Part shown: one piece after another, positions 8,393 through 13,528 of the stretch
Position numbering within the stretch: the stretch's first letter is position 1
How the letters are laid out: every line of letters begins with the position of its first letter
From: a virus
Taxonomy: Duplodnaviria > Caudoviricetes
Strand: one strand, 5' to 3'
Virus record (IMG/VR): IMGVR_UViG_3300034084_000080
Coordinates: 6,631-70,630 of that record
Length of the DNA: 64,000 bases
The notes under the pieces: generated by a model
The model's database searches: none
Told to the model about the DNA's origin: nothing
Seen by the model: the letters and a program-made list of their open reading frames with translations, nothing else
Position numbers and translations under genes: made by a program

Positions 8393-8932
8393 TTAAATTA
8401 GTTTCCTTTTTTTAGGTTTGGTCTGCAAACCTGTTTTGTGTGCGTGTAATTGATTTTCACTTTGCGTACACCATTCAAGATTTTCAACTCGATTATCTGT
8501 TTTTATACCATTAATGTGATTTACATGAGGTTTATTACTCTTATTTTCTATAAAGCAAATAGAAACCGCTCTGTGTACTGATATTTTTTTTGTTTTACCG
8601 TTAATTGATAATACAACTCTAAGATATCCACGAGTGGTTAATTCAGGTTTTAAAATCTGTTTGGAACTTTTTACCCTACCTAAATTAGACGCATAATATC
8701 CTTCATAATCAGTTATTGGTTCCCATTTTTCGCCAGGTAATGATTCTATTTTACTAACCTTACTAACGTAGTCACGTTTATTTCTTAATCTACTTAACTG
8801 ATTAATGCAAAGCTTGCAATAGTTCCTCGAATATGTATAATTATGTCCTTTAACTACGCAAGAATATGTTGAAAATTCAGAAATTTGTTTTTCTAAATTG
8901 CACTTTCTGCAAACCTTATTTTGATTTTTCAT
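8393..8932 (-). CDS. NUMOD4-HNH homing endonuclease
   Basis: EKWEPITDYEGYYASNLGRVKS (NUMOD4) plus VNHINGIKTDNRVENLEW (HNH). Confidence 0.9.
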   Translation of the reverse strand: MKNQNKVCRKCNLEKQISEFSTYSCVVKGHNYTYSRNYCKLCINQLSRLRNKRDYVSKVSKIESLPGEKWEPITDYEGYYASNLGRVKSSKQILKPELTTRGYLRVVLSINGKTKKISVHRAVSICFIENKSNKPHVNHINGIKTDNRVENLEWCTQSENQLHAHKTGLQTKPKKRKLI

Positions 8933-9138
8933 TACTCACTTATTTTGCTGAAATAATTAGTTAATTGTGTTGCAACATAAACGATGTTGTGCCTATCGTT
9001 TTGATTTAAACTGCAATAATCATCTGTTGTGATATACCCCAGAAAAATAGTTTGAAATGTTTCTTGTGCCTGATGTGGCTCAATTTGTGAAAACAGTTCA
9101 TTTAGAAGCTGTTCTTTTTGTGTTTTCTCGTTCTGCAT
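8932..9138 (-). CDS. Small protein downstream of RNA switch 1 (paralog of 13190-13393)
   Basis: Shares F-x-GY-x3-D-x2-C-x4-NDR pattern with the 13190-13393 product. Confidence 0.75.
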   Translation of the reverse strand: MQNEKTQKEQLLNELFSQIEPHQAQETFQTIFLGYITTDDYCSLNQNDRHNIVYVATQLTNYFSKISE

Positions 9139-9278
9139 GAGATTTAAAATTTGTAAATAAATGCCCAGGTCGCTGCAGAACGAGCCGGATAACCGGTTGT
9201 TGACGGACTTTCACCGTATCGCCTGGGCTTTATCTTTGTTAGGAAAATTTGAATTGGATCTCTCCGACTCATTCTGCA
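9127..9278 (-). ncRNA. Structured antisense-switch leader 1 (P4 CI / P1 c4-like architecture)
   Basis: Outer stem 9222-9228/9163-9169; hairpin ACGG-TGAAAGT-CCGT at 9203-9217; segment 9174-9194 complementary to 9256-9278 and to the start-codon region 9127-9137. Confidence 0.75.
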
Positions 9279-9476
9279 TTCCAAACATGAGTATAATATT
9301 TTAAAAAAACAAGCTGTGTACGTTCTTTTATTGTTTACAAATTGATTACTGCATAATGTATTCCAAGACATATAATTGCGAATACAATACTTGCTAAGAG
9401 CCATTTAACTCTGTCCAATGCTTCAAGAAAATTTTTCATGGTTTTTGATTTTTAGGTTAAAAAAAAGAGGTAGTTT

Positions 9477-10763
9477 TTAGGCTACCTCGCTGATTTGTTT
9501 TTTGTATCTCGTTTTGATCTTCCGGATGTTTTTATTCACAAGTGATATAATCCGTTGATTGTGTATTGTGGGCTTATTCTCAAAGCCTCTCGATTGCAGG
9601 GGCTTCATCTCAGTAAGAGAAATTTCAATTGTTTCTACCCTCTGTCCACCTATCTGAGCAGATAGTATCAAAGATCCCGGTTTGTTATAATATGAATTGG
9701 TGAATACACAATGTTTATGTACTTCTGATTCCTCCAAAAACTCATTTACAGATTCAAGAACCTTTACTGTTAAGTCACCATCCGTAAAAGCAAGTCCGAA
9801 AAATGCTTTCTTTTCTTCAAGGTACTTAGCGTTTGCTTCATTGATCTTCCGTTTCTGTTTTTCAAGGGCTATTTTCTTTTCCTGATTACTCTTCTTTTTT
9901 ACATAATGAGCATGAGCCTTATGAAGATCATCAGGGCATATATATTTGGGGTTACGAATATCCTTGCCGAAATGGACTAATAAATCCAAATAGTCCAAGT
10001 AATCGGAAGAATCCTGAACAGTGTACTTATTACGAATGCAAATCTTTATTGAATCCCAATAGTTCTTAACCGGATTTTCTCTATACAGCAAGTATCTAAC
10101 CATATCATATTGACCTGATTTAATCAAAGTTTCAGCGATACTGTTATTTTTAAGCATCATTAAAAGATCAAAAGGTCTGCAGTATGATACATCAGGAGTA
10201 AATCCGTTCCGTTGAAATATTGGCATAACCTTAGAATCCGGATGAATAGCATCTGTAAAAACATTGTACTTTCTCAAAAACTGCTTTATTTCCATGGTTC
10301 CACTCCAATGATCTTCACTTATCACTCCCATTCCTCCGCAGTTCTTTGATACTATTACAGTCTTTTCTGAATCAACTTCTATCCATTGCTGAGTGATCTC
10401 ATGGATAAATACTCCGGGTTTTTCCCCGGCAAAGTGTAATGTTCTTAATTGAAAAAATCTATTAACCTGAAATCTGTCCTTTGTTTCAAGCATGGCAACA
10501 TATACCATTTGCTCATACTTCTTCTTCAATGTGTCCTCTATGTTTACAGTCCTTTTACATGATGGGCATTTATCGGTAAGATTATCAGAAGGAATACTAT
10601 CCCATTGATGCCCACAGCTTAAACACGATGTACGTTTTTTAGTCCTGAAAGCTTTATGCTCAATGACGTTATTAAATGCCCATTTTTCAATTTTACGATT
10701 GATCTTATACAGTTTATTGCTGAGGCTCAAAACCTCCGCTTGTAGCTTGTTTTTAGGCTTCAT
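9477..10763 (-). CDS. PcfJ domain protein
   Basis: MKPKNKLQ N-terminus, CLSCGH/CPSC zinc motifs, YLDYLDLL...ICPDDLHKAH, HCVFTNSYY. Confidence 0.85.
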   Translation of the reverse strand: MKPKNKLQAEVLSLSNKLYKINRKIEKWAFNNVIEHKAFRTKKRTSCLSCGHQWDSIPSDNLTDKCPSCKRTVNIEDTLKKKYEQMVYVAMLETKDRFQVNRFFQLRTLHFAGEKPGVFIHEITQQWIEVDSEKTVIVSKNCGGMGVISEDHWSGTMEIKQFLRKYNVFTDAIHPDSKVMPIFQRNGFTPDVSYCRPFDLLMMLKNNSIAETLIKSGQYDMVRYLLYRENPVKNYWDSIKICIRNKYTVQDSSDYLDYLDLLVHFGKDIRNPKYICPDDLHKAHAHYVKKKSNQEKKIALEKQKRKINEANAKYLEEKKAFFGLAFTDGDLTVKVLESVNEFLEESEVHKHCVFTNSYYNKPGSLILSAQIGGQRVETIEISLTEMKPLQSRGFENKPTIHNQRIISLVNKNIRKIKTRYKKQISEVA

Positions 10764-10767
10764 GGCT

Positions 10768-11166
10768 TTAAAATAATGTTAACACGTTTGTTGGTTGTGG
10801 TTGAGCCTTTTTAATTTCAGGCTTCTTAACTATTGCTTCTTTGGATGGCTTTTTAGTTTTTGGAGTAGCAGATTTGGGATTACCTATTATTAAATCTGCA
10901 TGATGGTTTACTACTACATTGCCGGAACTTATCTTGTTTCCAATGTTGATATTATCTTCATCGTAGTAATGAACTGCCATATCGTAAACCTCTTGATCTG
11001 CAAAACCATTGCAACCGCTATTCTTTACGGTGTTGAGAATGTATGTAATACAGTCGTCAATGTTCTTGTTAGGCTTTTTAAGGGTTTCAGCGAATAAAGG
11101 GTCATTTATTGCCCTACCTTGTAGGTATGCGTGAATAGTTGACTTAAATACTTCTGAACCTTTCAT
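10768..11166 (-). CDS. PcfK-like / AcrIIA9-family protein
   Basis: FKSTIHAYLQGRAINDPLFA...KNIDDCITYILNTVKNSGCNGF...MAVHYYDED. Confidence 0.8.
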   Translation of the reverse strand: MKGSEVFKSTIHAYLQGRAINDPLFAETLKKPNKNIDDCITYILNTVKNSGCNGFADQEVYDMAVHYYDEDNINIGNKISSGNVVVNHHADLIIGNPKSATPKTKKPSKEAIVKKPEIKKAQPQPTNVLTLF

Positions 11167-11171
11167 AATGT

Positions 11172-12725: not shown

Positions 12726-12744
12726 TTATTCGATTTTCGTATAT
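12726..12744. promoter_or_regulatory. 19-bp palindromic operator-like site
   Basis: TTATTCGATTTTCGTATAT, 2 nt from the ATG at 12723 (-). Confidence 0.75.
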
Positions 12745-12756
12745 AGTAAACAGATT

Positions 12757-13140
12757 TTAATACTCAGAAGGTAACATCATTACCCCATGAACCAACCATA
12801 TAGTAAGATCATCATGCGGAAAGTCACTAAATGGAATATTTTGAGAGGCTATTATATTTTCGTTCCCATCATCGCAAGTCACTATAAATTTATCCCCCTC
12901 CGTTCTTTTTAACTTCCACACCTGGAACTCTTCACCTGCAAGCTTTCGACTACCTTGATAGCTTGCAATCACATCCAAAAACCAAAAACATTGAAATTGA
13001 TCTGCTGCAGCTTTCGCGCCCTCGGTTAATCGGGTGCCCAAAATGTAGCGGTACTGATCACCGCCACCAATAAAACCTGCTAAAAGATCATTTGCGTTTG
13101 ATCTTTTCTGCTCTTCTGTTGTTACGTTTAATGTTGCCAT
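12757..13140 (-). CDS. DUF6876-like protein
   Basis: LTEGAKAAADQFQCFWFLDVIASYQ...FQVWKL...QNIPFSDFP. Confidence 0.65.
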   Translation of the reverse strand: MATLNVTTEEQKRSNANDLLAGFIGGGDQYRYILGTRLTEGAKAAADQFQCFWFLDVIASYQGSRKLAGEEFQVWKLKRTEGDKFIVTCDDGNENIIASQNIPFSDFPHDDLTIWLVHGVMMLPSEY

Positions 13141-13155
13141 TGTTTTTAAGGTTGT

Positions 13156-13173
13156 GGAGCCGTTCCCGGCTCC
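13156..13173 (-). other. GC-rich GNRA hairpin, no U-tract
   Basis: GGAGCCG-GGAA-CGGCUCC, 15 nt before the ATG at 13140. Confidence 0.55.
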
Positions 13174-13189
13174 GGGTTAATTGATATGG

Positions 13190-13393
13190 TTAATCATCGC
13201 TTAAATGTGTTAAAAACTCATTAATCTGACCGAAAATGAATAAATCATCTTTACGATCGTTTATTTCCTGCCCACAAAATTCATCAGAGCATAAATACCC
13301 CTGAAATACTTTGTTAAGAAATTTGATGATTGGTTGAGTGGTTCCGAACTGATCTTTTAGTTCTTGGGATGGTGTTTTTTTCTGTGTTCGCAT
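13190..13393 (-). CDS. Small protein downstream of RNA switch 2 (paralog of 8932-9138)
   Basis: VFQGYLCSDEFCGQEINDR aligns with IFLGYITTDDYCSLNQNDR. Confidence 0.75.
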   Translation of the reverse strand: MRTQKKTPSQELKDQFGTTQPIIKFLNKVFQGYLCSDEFCGQEINDRKDDLFIFGQINEFLTHLSDD

Positions 13394-13528
13394 TTTGAAA
13401 AGTTTTTAAAATGCCCATGTCGCTGCGAACACAGTCGGAGAACCGAAAGAGTGCCGGACTTTCACCGGATCGCATGGGCTTTATTATTAAGAAATTGTTT
13501 TTAGTGGATCTCTCCAACTATGTTCGCA
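13382..13528 (-). ncRNA. Structured antisense-switch leader 2
   Basis: Outer stem 13473-13479/13413-13419; hairpin CCGG-TGAAAGT-CCGG at 13454-13468; segment 13424-13444 complementary to 13506-13528 and to the start-codon region 13382-13392. Confidence 0.75.

What the first reader, a model, noticed from the sequence alone, without database searches (positions are those of the whole stretch)
8932..13528. Two orthogonal antisense-switch modules, each wired to the start codon of a paralogous small protein
Seen: two leaders on (-) share the order siteA, ~25-nt spacer, [7-bp stem, NCGG-UGAAAGU-CCGN hairpin, 21-nt siteB, GCGA, stem close], ~20-nt spacer, ATG. The scaffold shows compensatory changes (GCCCAGG/CCUGGGC vs GCCCAUG/CAUGGGC; ACGG/CCGU vs CCGG/CCGG). 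The address sequence differs between copies but has changed in step at all three positions: siteA, siteB and the first codons of the ORF (ATGCAGAACGAG, MQNE, vs ATGCGAACACAG, MRTQ). The two downstream 67-68-aa proteins are paralogs. Known: P4 CI RNA (seqB pairing with seqA and seqC) and P1/P7 c4 RNA work this way in proteobacterial phages. Inferred: a Bacteroidetes RNA immunity or translation-gating system with two specificities in one phage, controlling Kil/Icd-like effectors and possibly termination of the early operon.
Basis: partly seen in the sequence, partly recalled or inferred. Interest (0 to 1): 0.9.

Follow-up and report, generated by a model that had tools for sequence, protein, structure and literature searches.

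The report
Self-addressed antisense leader RNA switch family
Two leader RNAs in this Bacteroidota prophage belong to a previously uncatalogued RNA family in which a folded scaffold displays an 11-base sequence that can pair either with the RNA's own 5' end or with the start codon of the next gene, a layout that mirrors the antisense immunity RNAs of phages P1 and P4.

Summary
Both leaders on the minus strand have a -7-box-like promoter, a 5'-terminal siteA, a four-helix scaffold and an 11-nt siteB. SiteB is the exact complement of the U and G of the AUG plus the next 9 nt.

I recovered about 35 further copies from Pedobacter, Desertivirga and other Bacteroidota genomes and metagenomes. They carry more than 20 different addresses, and the three sites always change together.
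- siteB:start is 99.5% paired, with 7 of 11 pairs changed on both sides.
- siteA:siteB is 97% paired, with 9 of 17 pairs changed on both sides.
- No shuffle out of 500 reached these values.
- G.U outnumbers A.C 45 to 5, so the pairing acts in the sense-strand RNA.

No Rfam 15 family matches, including C4, c4-a1b1 and isrK, although these models do detect the P1 control. The scaffold topology and the site-RNA-site-small-ORF layout nevertheless parallel P1 c4 and P4 CI.

The gated genes vary: a 67-aa three-helix family, RadC-like, SymE-like and others. The address diverges faster than the spacers. Linked copies carry different addresses, and the two in this window differ by about 10 kcal/mol between cognate and cross pairing.

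Translation gating by alternative pairing is well supported. Trans-acting, immunity-like action is inferred and untested.

The parts
9282..9289 (-). Leader 1 promoter -7-like box (CATGTTTG), ending 3 nt before siteA
   Evidence: The same [TC]AnnTTT[GA] box sits at the same distance in 30 of 35 family copies. A terminator of the upstream unit lies at 9488-9467.
9263..9278 (-). Leader 1 siteA: core 9278-9268, extended pairing to 9263. It is the presumed 5' end of the transcript.
   Evidence: 16 bp with the siteB region, 14 Watson-Crick and 2 G.U; duplex -28.9 kcal/mol.
9163..9228 (-). Leader 1 scaffold: P1 9228-9222/9169-9163, P2 9217-9203 (loop UGAAAGU), P3 9196-9185, single-stranded siteB core 9184-9174, linker GCGA
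   Evidence: Helix covariation.
9127..9138 (-). Leader 1 target: the AUG (9138-9136); the pairing covers U and G of the AUG plus 9 nt (9137-9127), followed by an A-run
   Evidence: Exact 11-nt complement of siteB; duplex -19.8 kcal/mol, against -7.3 with the other module's target.
8932..9138 (-). Gated ORF 1, 68 aa, small three-helix protein. Its stop overlaps the start of a NUMOD4/HNH endonuclease gene (8393-8932).
13510..13529 (-). Leader 2 siteA: core 13528-13518, extended pairing to 13510
   Evidence: 20 bp with the siteB region, 16 Watson-Crick and 4 G.U; -33.3 kcal/mol. The predicted minimum-energy fold forms this helix. A terminator of the upstream unit lies at 13894-13873.
13413..13479 (-). 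Leader 2 scaffold: P1 13479-13473/13419-13413, P2 13468-13454, P3 13446-13435, siteB core 13434-13424
   Evidence: Model R1 scores it at 130 bits.
13382..13393 (-). Leader 2 target: the AUG (13393-13391); the pairing covers 13392-13382
   Evidence: Exact 11-nt complement of siteB; -19.2 kcal/mol cognate against -9.9 cross.
13190..13393 (-). Gated ORF 2, 67 aa, paralog of ORF 1. It heads the unit that runs from DUF6876 through PcfK and PcfJ to the terminator at 9488-9467.

Best explanation
Each module is a self-contained expression cassette of about 170 nt. A Bacteroidota-type promoter starts the transcript at siteA. A scaffold follows: basal stem P1 enclosing hairpins P2 and P3, plus a small hairpin next to siteA. 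The scaffold displays an 11-nt antisense segment, siteB, in the junction strand just 5' of the closing stem.

SiteB has two mutually exclusive partners on the same RNA. One is siteA at the 5' end (16-20 bp, which melts P3 and the small hairpin); this leaves the start codon free, so translation is on. The other is the U and G of the AUG plus the next 9 nt of the first gene; this blocks initiation, so translation is off. Occluding the start codon makes sense in a phylum that initiates translation without a Shine-Dalgarno sequence.

Shown here: the three-way complementarity, its covariation, the strand-specific G.U pattern and the near-equal predicted energies of the two states.

Inferred: as with P1 c4 and P4 CI, the scaffold released from earlier transcripts also acts in trans. 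It would occupy siteA and the start site of new transcripts carrying the same address. That would give a pulse of expression on entry followed by self-shut-off, with address-specific, immunity-like behaviour. Diversifying selection on the address, and the different addresses of linked copies, would follow from this.
For: - Three-site complementarity holds in the 21 instances and 11 of the 12, with more than 20 addresses.
- Covariation on 18 sequences: siteB:start is 99.5% paired with 7 of 11 pairs changed on both sides; siteA:siteB is 97.1% paired with 9 of 17. No shuffle of 500 reached these values, and slid controls were 26-44% paired.
- Scaffold helices on 35 copies are 97.8% paired, with 18 of 19 pairs changed on both sides (that alignment was fitted to the model).
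- RNAalifold recovers the siteA:siteB helix independently.
- In siteA:siteB, G.U outnumbers A.C 45 to 5, and 11 of 13 differences between siteA and the target keep wobble pairing.
- States with siteA:siteB or siteB:start enforced lie within about 3 kcal/mol in 10 of the 18 leaders, for example -38.9 against -39.0 for leader 1.
- A -7-like box ends 3 nt before siteA in 30 of 35 copies.
- The address core diverges at 0.46 per site, against 0.33-0.39 for the spacers and 0.17 for the scaffold. L025 and L032 differ by 3.6% in the scaffold but at 5 of 7 address positions.
- Linked copies have different addresses: this window, Desertivirga G003 and the tandem triplet in L032.
- Cognate duplexes are -19.2 and -19.8 kcal/mol, cross duplexes -9.9 and -7.3.
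- The P1 immI annotation and the C4 model show the same order of parts, and the same placement of the antisense segment in the 3' junction strand of a stem-closed two-hairpin scaffold.
- An AntA/ANT antirepressor lies two genes downstream in L009.
Against:
- No extra trans targets were found in the window or in four host genomes, so every feature is also compatible with purely cis action.
- In the intact leader, siteA:siteB (-29 to -33 kcal/mol) is stronger than siteB:start (about -19), so an intact leader would hide siteB. Trans action needs a processing step that is only assumed.
- There is no CCA-like tail after P1, unlike c4.
- One copy (L049) has its target about 40 nt downstream of the nearest ATG.
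- Some copies sit in chromosomal regions without phage genes, so phage immunity cannot be the general role.
Confidence: 0.6

Rival explanations
1. A purely cis-acting metastable leader, as in hok-type type I toxin mRNAs. SiteA captures siteB during transcription (on). The RNA then refolds, or loses its 5' end, so that siteB closes the start codon (off). This limits potentially toxic proteins to a short burst. No trans-acting RNA and no immunity are involved.
For: - All three sites lie on one transcript, and no other targets exist.
- The two states are nearly equal in predicted energy.
- Some gated genes are SymE_toxin-like.
- One sequence pairing alternately with two partners, and co-varying with both, is known from hok mRNAs (my own knowledge; one search did not retrieve the primary paper).
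Against: - The address evolves faster than the unconstrained spacers even though a change needs three coordinated substitutions.
- Linked copies always carry different addresses.

Both points are hard to explain without selection for specificity between molecules.
Confidence: 0.28
2. A transcription attenuator or dual-isoform RNA like IsrK. P1 followed by a U-rich tail terminates part of the transcripts, giving an RNA of about 130 nt. The siteA:siteB pairing decides between termination and read-through, and the short isoform acts on the read-through mRNA.
For: - The 12 nt that begin 3 nt before the end of P1 hold on average 7.1 U. Many copies have UUUUAUUU immediately after the stem, and the divergent copies L009-L011 have an 8-bp GC-rich stem plus U4-6.
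- IsrK and P4 CI are precedents (PMC4825925).
Against: - P1 encloses about 55 nt, so the simple terminator scan does not call it.
- Several copies, for example L018, L008 and L003, have weak U tails.
- This reading does not explain why the target must be the start codon itself.
Confidence: 0.15
3. A ligand- or protein-sensing leader: the scaffold (P2 loop, junctions) is an aptamer, and siteA, siteB and the start site are only its expression platform.
For: In the main subfamily, unpaired nucleotides are highly conserved: the P2 loop UGNAAGU, the linkers CGAU and GCGA, and the P3 loop UUNU.
Against: - Divergent copies keep the architecture but not these loop sequences (L009-L011).
- The gated genes share no metabolic theme.
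- No riboswitch family matched.
Confidence: 0.08
4. A DNA-level feature: inverted repeats of an invertible segment, or a small mobile element with an 11-bp target-site duplication.
For: SiteA and siteB are inverted repeats. SiteA and the target are direct repeats that differ between copies.
Against: - Non-Watson-Crick positions are G.U on the sense strand 45 times against 5 A.C, which DNA pairing would not favour.
- The target always overlaps an AUG, and siteA always lies 3 nt after a -7-like box.
- The helices between the repeats co-vary as RNA.
- No recombinase is consistently adjacent.
Confidence: 0.02

Closest known systems
P1/P7 c4 antisense RNA with its a1b1 and a2b2 sites (Rfam RF01695, RF03163; clan CL00128)
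   Same: - The order is promoter, upstream complementary site, structured RNA of 67-77 nt, downstream site at the translation start region of a small ORF (icd 73 aa; here 67-68 aa), then an overlapping next gene.
- The antisense segment lies single-stranded in the junction just 5' of the closing strand of a basal stem that encloses two hairpins.
- An antirepressor lies downstream in one relative.
   Different: - No covariance-model match in either direction, although the models do find P1.
- One contiguous 11-nt address instead of two short boxes a' and b'.
- The target is the start codon and first codons, not the Shine-Dalgarno region.
- The basal stem is 7-8 bp rather than about 17 bp, and there is no CCA-like 3' tail.
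- Host phylum is Bacteroidota, not Proteobacteria.
- Processing and trans action are unproven here.
P4 CI RNA (seqB pairing with seqA and seqC) and Gifsy-1 IsrK
   Same: One internal sequence is complementary to one site upstream and one downstream on the same primary transcript. A short and a read-through isoform are possible. The RNA acts on its own mRNA (PMC4825925).
   Different: P4 CI acts by transcription termination, and IsrK activates translation. Here the target position predicts a block of initiation. isrK (RF01394) does not match.
Type I toxin-antitoxin leaders (hok/sok fold-back elements; SymE/SymR)
   Same: Some gated genes carry the SymE_toxin domain. Mutually exclusive long-range pairings involve the 5' end and the start region. 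One segment co-varies with two partners.
   Different: The antisense segment is encoded in the same transcript upstream of the gene, not on the opposite strand. Most gated genes are not recognisable toxins.

Membership tests
Rfam C4 antisense RNA clan (RF01695 C4, RF03163 c4-a1b1, RF01394 isrK) | Match to the family covariance models | tested here: not met
   No hit at the gathering threshold on the window, none at E<=10 on 8800-13700, and none at E<=1 on 11 related loci. Positive control on P1 immI: C4 68.8 bits, c4-a1b1 51 bits, isrK 35 bits. My model R1 finds nothing at P1 c4.
Rfam C4 antisense RNA clan | Layout: upstream site, antisense RNA, downstream site at the translation start region of a small ORF, all on one transcript | tested here: met
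   P1 annotation compared.
Rfam C4 antisense RNA clan | Antisense segment displayed unpaired inside a stem-closed, two-hairpin scaffold | tested here: met
   C4 consensus structure compared with P1/P2/P3 plus junction siteB.
Rfam C4 antisense RNA clan | Two separate recognition boxes (a', b') and a tRNA-like CCA 3' tail for RNase P processing | tested here: not met
   There is a single contiguous 11-nt siteB. The sequence after P1 is AUUU, CUAU or UUUU.
Rfam C4 antisense RNA clan | Processed small RNA that represses in trans and defines immunity specificity | not testable with these tools
The only indirect evidence is address hypervariability and the different addresses of linked copies.
Type I toxin-antitoxin system | Toxin gene repressed by an antisense RNA transcribed from the opposite strand or a separate gene | tested here: not met
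   The antisense segment lies in the sense-strand leader, as shown by the G.U bias. The SymE_toxin domain occurs in only 3 of the related loci and in neither window ORF.
Riboswitch | Conserved ligand-binding aptamer shared by all members | tested here: inconclusive
   Loop and junction sequences are conserved in the main subfamily but not in L009-L011. No Rfam riboswitch hit.
Invertible DNA segment or mobile element with target duplication | Repeats that act as DNA, with no strand bias in mismatches | tested here: not met
   G.U outnumbers A.C 45 to 5, and the interior helices co-vary as RNA.

The most novel reading that the evidence does not exclude
Bacteroidota mobile elements carry a natural library of dozens of mutually orthogonal, programmable RNA regulators. 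A common scaffold displays an interchangeable 11-nt address that acts in trans on the start codon and the 5' end of cognate transcripts. This would be an RNA-based immunity and incompatibility system that arose independently of c4/CI and is adapted to translation without a Shine-Dalgarno sequence. New specificities would arise by duplication and triple co-variation, as caught in the tandem triplet of L032.
Probability: 0.4. Interest if true: 0.85.

Novelty: new variant of a known kind. Interest (0 to 1): 0.76.

Why it matters
Regulatory RNAs of Bacteroidota and their mobile elements are poorly known, and the phylum lacks Hfq, ProQ and Shine-Dalgarno-based initiation (my own knowledge, not tested here).

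This family would be the first c4/CI-style self-targeting antisense module in the phylum. It shows how such a device is rebuilt when the only fixed landmark of an initiation site is the start codon.

The covariation signal is unusually clean: three sites and more than 20 addresses. The structure model can therefore be tested directly.

The conserved scaffold with a swappable 11-nt address is a ready template for orthogonal gene control in Bacteroidota.

The family also marks genes that mobile elements keep under tight control: RadC-like, SymE-like, a new 67-aa family, and operons carrying PcfK and PcfJ.

Tried and rejected
- Rfam at gathering and permissive thresholds on the window and 11 loci gave no relevant family.
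- The exact 19-nt scaffold word and a looser gapped pattern in viral contigs gave nothing, or a chance hit in a high-GC phage (L007).
- The final pattern also returned unrelated hits, which I discarded on inspection: L012, L013, L015, L016, L021, L024, L027, L028, L031 and L036. Three of them scored weakly with R1, between E 0.005 and 0.2.
- BLAST of a leader against cultured phages and plasmids gave no match.
- Model R1 on a phylum-wide sample of 150 genomes found no copy outside the seed genome, under strict filters. Relatives cannot be drawn for a virus record.
- A search for additional targets of either address in the window, and of one address in four host genomes, found only the cognate sites.
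- The 68-aa protein has no significant fold match in the PDB or the viral library, and no Pfam or PHROG family.
- An upstream reading frame starting at siteA was rejected. It is open for 22 codons in leader 1 but stops at codon 4 in leader 2 and codon 11 in L003 (read).
- Literature searches found no description of this element.

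
Full report
**What is in the window.** The window is part of a 70.6-kb provirus record. On the minus strand between about 7.9 and 21.3 kb lies a run of small early-type genes.

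Each follows an intrinsic terminator of the upstream unit, at 13894-13873 and 9488-9467, so each heads its own transcription unit.
- Unit 2 runs from the 67-aa ORF through DUF6876, several small ORFs, PcfK and PcfJ.
- Unit 1 runs from the 68-aa ORF into an overlapping NUMOD4/HNH endonuclease gene.

**Anatomy of a module.** The order of parts is:
- a -7-box-like word ([TC]AnnTTT[GA]) ending 3 nt before siteA;
- siteA;
- a small hairpin with a GNRA-type loop;
- an AT-rich spacer of about 30 nt;
- a 7-bp GC-rich basal stem P1 that encloses hairpin P2 (loop UGAAAGU), hairpin P3 (loop UUNU) and a single-stranded 11-nt siteB, followed by a 3-4-nt linker;
- a U/A-rich spacer of 13-25 nt;
- the AUG.

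SiteB is the perfect complement of the U and G of the AUG plus the next 9 nt in both leaders. The same siteB, extended into the 3' strand of P3, pairs with siteA over 16 bp in leader 1 and 20 bp in leader 2, using G.U wobbles.

**Is it more than chance?** Each address occurs in the 64-kb window only at its three sites, apart from one or two single-mismatch hits; about 0.5 hits are expected by chance.

The stronger test came from relatives.
- A profile of the small proteins found about 20 cluster representatives. All five contigs I fetched had the same architecture upstream of the AUG, four of them with a different address. The five are L003, L008, L009, L010 and L011.
- A DNA pattern from the scaffold then found true copies in one viral contig, in metagenomes, and in Pedobacter, Desertivirga and other Bacteroidota genomes.
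- A covariance model built from 19 copies (R1) found more, including divergent ones.
- In total I have about 35 copies with more than 20 different addresses.
- In almost all of them the target starts at the U of the AUG, is 9-11 nt long (16-17 nt in three copies) and is followed by an A-run.

**Covariation.** On an 18-sequence MAFFT alignment:
- siteB:start is 99.5% paired, with 7 of 11 pairs changed on both sides;
- siteA:siteB is 97.1% paired, with 9 of 17 pairs changed on both sides;
- no shuffle of 500 reached the observed values, and sliding the partner by 1-3 columns dropped pairing to 26-44%.

On 35 copies aligned to the model, the four scaffold helices are 97.8% paired, with 18 of 19 pairs changed on both sides. 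That alignment is fitted to the structure, so it leans towards it. RNAalifold, run independently, predicts the siteA:siteB helix together with the small hairpin, P2 and P3.

Column 113 pairs with column 102 in P3 and with column 26 in the siteA extension. In leader 1 all three changed together, and in L033 columns 26 and 113 changed together. Both alternative pairings are therefore under selection. This is what a real switch should show.

**RNA or DNA?** In the siteA:siteB helix the non-Watson-Crick cells are G.U on the sense strand 45 times, against 5 A.C. Of the 13 differences between siteA and the target, 11 are C-to-U or A-to-G, which keep pairing with siteB. This strand bias shows that the pairing acts in the sense-strand RNA. 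It argues against an invertible DNA segment or a target-site duplication.

**Energetics.** The cognate siteB:start duplexes are -19.2 and -19.8 kcal/mol. Across the two modules of the window they are -9.9 and -7.3. Across the family, cognate pairs average -18.5 and non-cognate pairs -9.0.

With the siteA:siteB helix or the siteB:start helix enforced, the predicted energies of whole leaders lie within about 3 kcal/mol in 10 of the 18 leaders. Examples are -38.9 against -39.0 for leader 1, and -39.5 against -39.5 for L008. P1 would be a pseudoknot in both states and is not counted. This near-balance is what a bistable element should show. These are predictions, not measurements.

**What is gated.** The gated genes are diverse:
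- the 67-68-aa family, with a confident three-helix model and no fold, Pfam or PHROG match;
- RadC-like JAB proteins;
- SymE_toxin-like proteins;
- several proteins of unknown family.

In L009 an AntA/ANT antirepressor lies two genes downstream. The first four or five codons (M-x-x-x-K) belong to the module rather than to the protein.

The cassette is not confined to prophages. Desertivirga has two copies 6 kb apart next to a capsule locus. No cultured phage or plasmid carries one. Twelve of 101 relatives of Desertivirga have a copy. None of a phylum-wide sample of 150 did, under strict filters.

**Cis or trans?** Everything needed for a cis switch is on one RNA, and I found no additional targets. 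Two observations point to selection for specificity between molecules.
- The seven variable address positions diverge at 0.46 per site. That is more than the unconstrained spacers (0.33-0.39) and 2.6 times the scaffold (0.17), even though each change needs two compensating changes. L025 and L032 differ by 3.6% in the scaffold but at 5 of 7 address positions.
- Whenever copies are linked, their addresses differ. This holds for this window, for Desertivirga G003, and for a tandem triplet with a 273-nt period in L032.

This is the pattern expected if the scaffold RNA can meet other transcripts, as c4 and CI do. It remains an inference.

**Comparison with the known systems.** The annotated P1 immI region has the order P1c4 promoter, a1, b1, c4 (77 nt), a2, b2, icd (73 aa), with ant overlapping. 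The Rfam C4 consensus is a basal stem enclosing two hairpins, with an unpaired segment just before the closing strand. That segment is a', the complement of a2. The module here has the same topology and order.

It is nevertheless not a detectable member of that family. C4, c4-a1b1 and isrK do not match it at permissive thresholds, although they score 68.8, 51 and 35 bits on P1. My model finds nothing at c4. Other differences are:
- a single 11-nt address instead of two boxes;
- the start codon as target;
- a short basal stem;
- no CCA-like tail.

P4 CI and IsrK show that such layouts can act through termination or activation as well (PMC4825925). The U-rich tail after P1 keeps an attenuator or short-isoform mechanism open.

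**Verdict.** I hold with high confidence that alternative pairing of siteB gates the start codon. I hold with moderate confidence that the module also works in trans as a c4/CI-like specificity determinant. It works like c4/CI, but I do not file it as a member of that family.

Noticed in passing
window 9429-9504 (+), opposite a 34-aa hydrophobic ORF at about 9437-9333 (-): Weak match to the Bacteroidetes FopS small-RNA family (33 bits, gathering score 56). It lies antisense to the start of a tiny membrane-like ORF just after the PcfJ terminator. It may be only the shared terminator plus a CAUGG word.
   Followed up: no
L032 4886-5559 (-): Three modules in tandem with a 273-nt period, each with a different address (UGCAAAACGAG, UGCGACAAAUG, UGACAACCGAG). 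One open frame reads through all three. The third siteA and its -7 box are degenerate. This looks like a snapshot of duplication followed by address divergence.
   Followed up: partly
L022 6988-7092 (-): Flavo-1 RNA (RF01705, 56.5 bits, above its gathering score of 42) about 1.3 kb upstream of a module on a metagenome contig.
   Followed up: no
L049 (G047:C150:3276-3398, minus strand): Exception to the rule: the 11-nt complement of siteB lies about 40 nt downstream of the nearest ATG, out of frame, and is preceded by CUG instead of AUG. It may be a decayed copy or a mis-placed start.
   Followed up: no
window 8800-13700: The permissive Rfam scan returned no hammerhead family in this stretch. 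Only a spurious SNORD28 hit overlaps 11654-11721, where another first-stage note proposes a hammerhead.
   Followed up: no
L057 9057-9488 and 15138-15569 (Desertivirga G003): Both Desertivirga modules are followed by a short ORF and then a 143-aa ORF without a Pfam family. The region lies in a chromosome beside capsule-synthesis genes (Wzz, polysaccharide export, NusG-like).
   Followed up: partly
window 53053-53126 (+): tRNA gene (66.5 bits) inside the structural-gene half of the provirus.
   Followed up: no
L053 and L055 (two contigs of genome G061): Two near-identical modules with the same, unusually long 17-nt address. This is the only case seen of one address occurring twice in one genome.
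   Followed up: no
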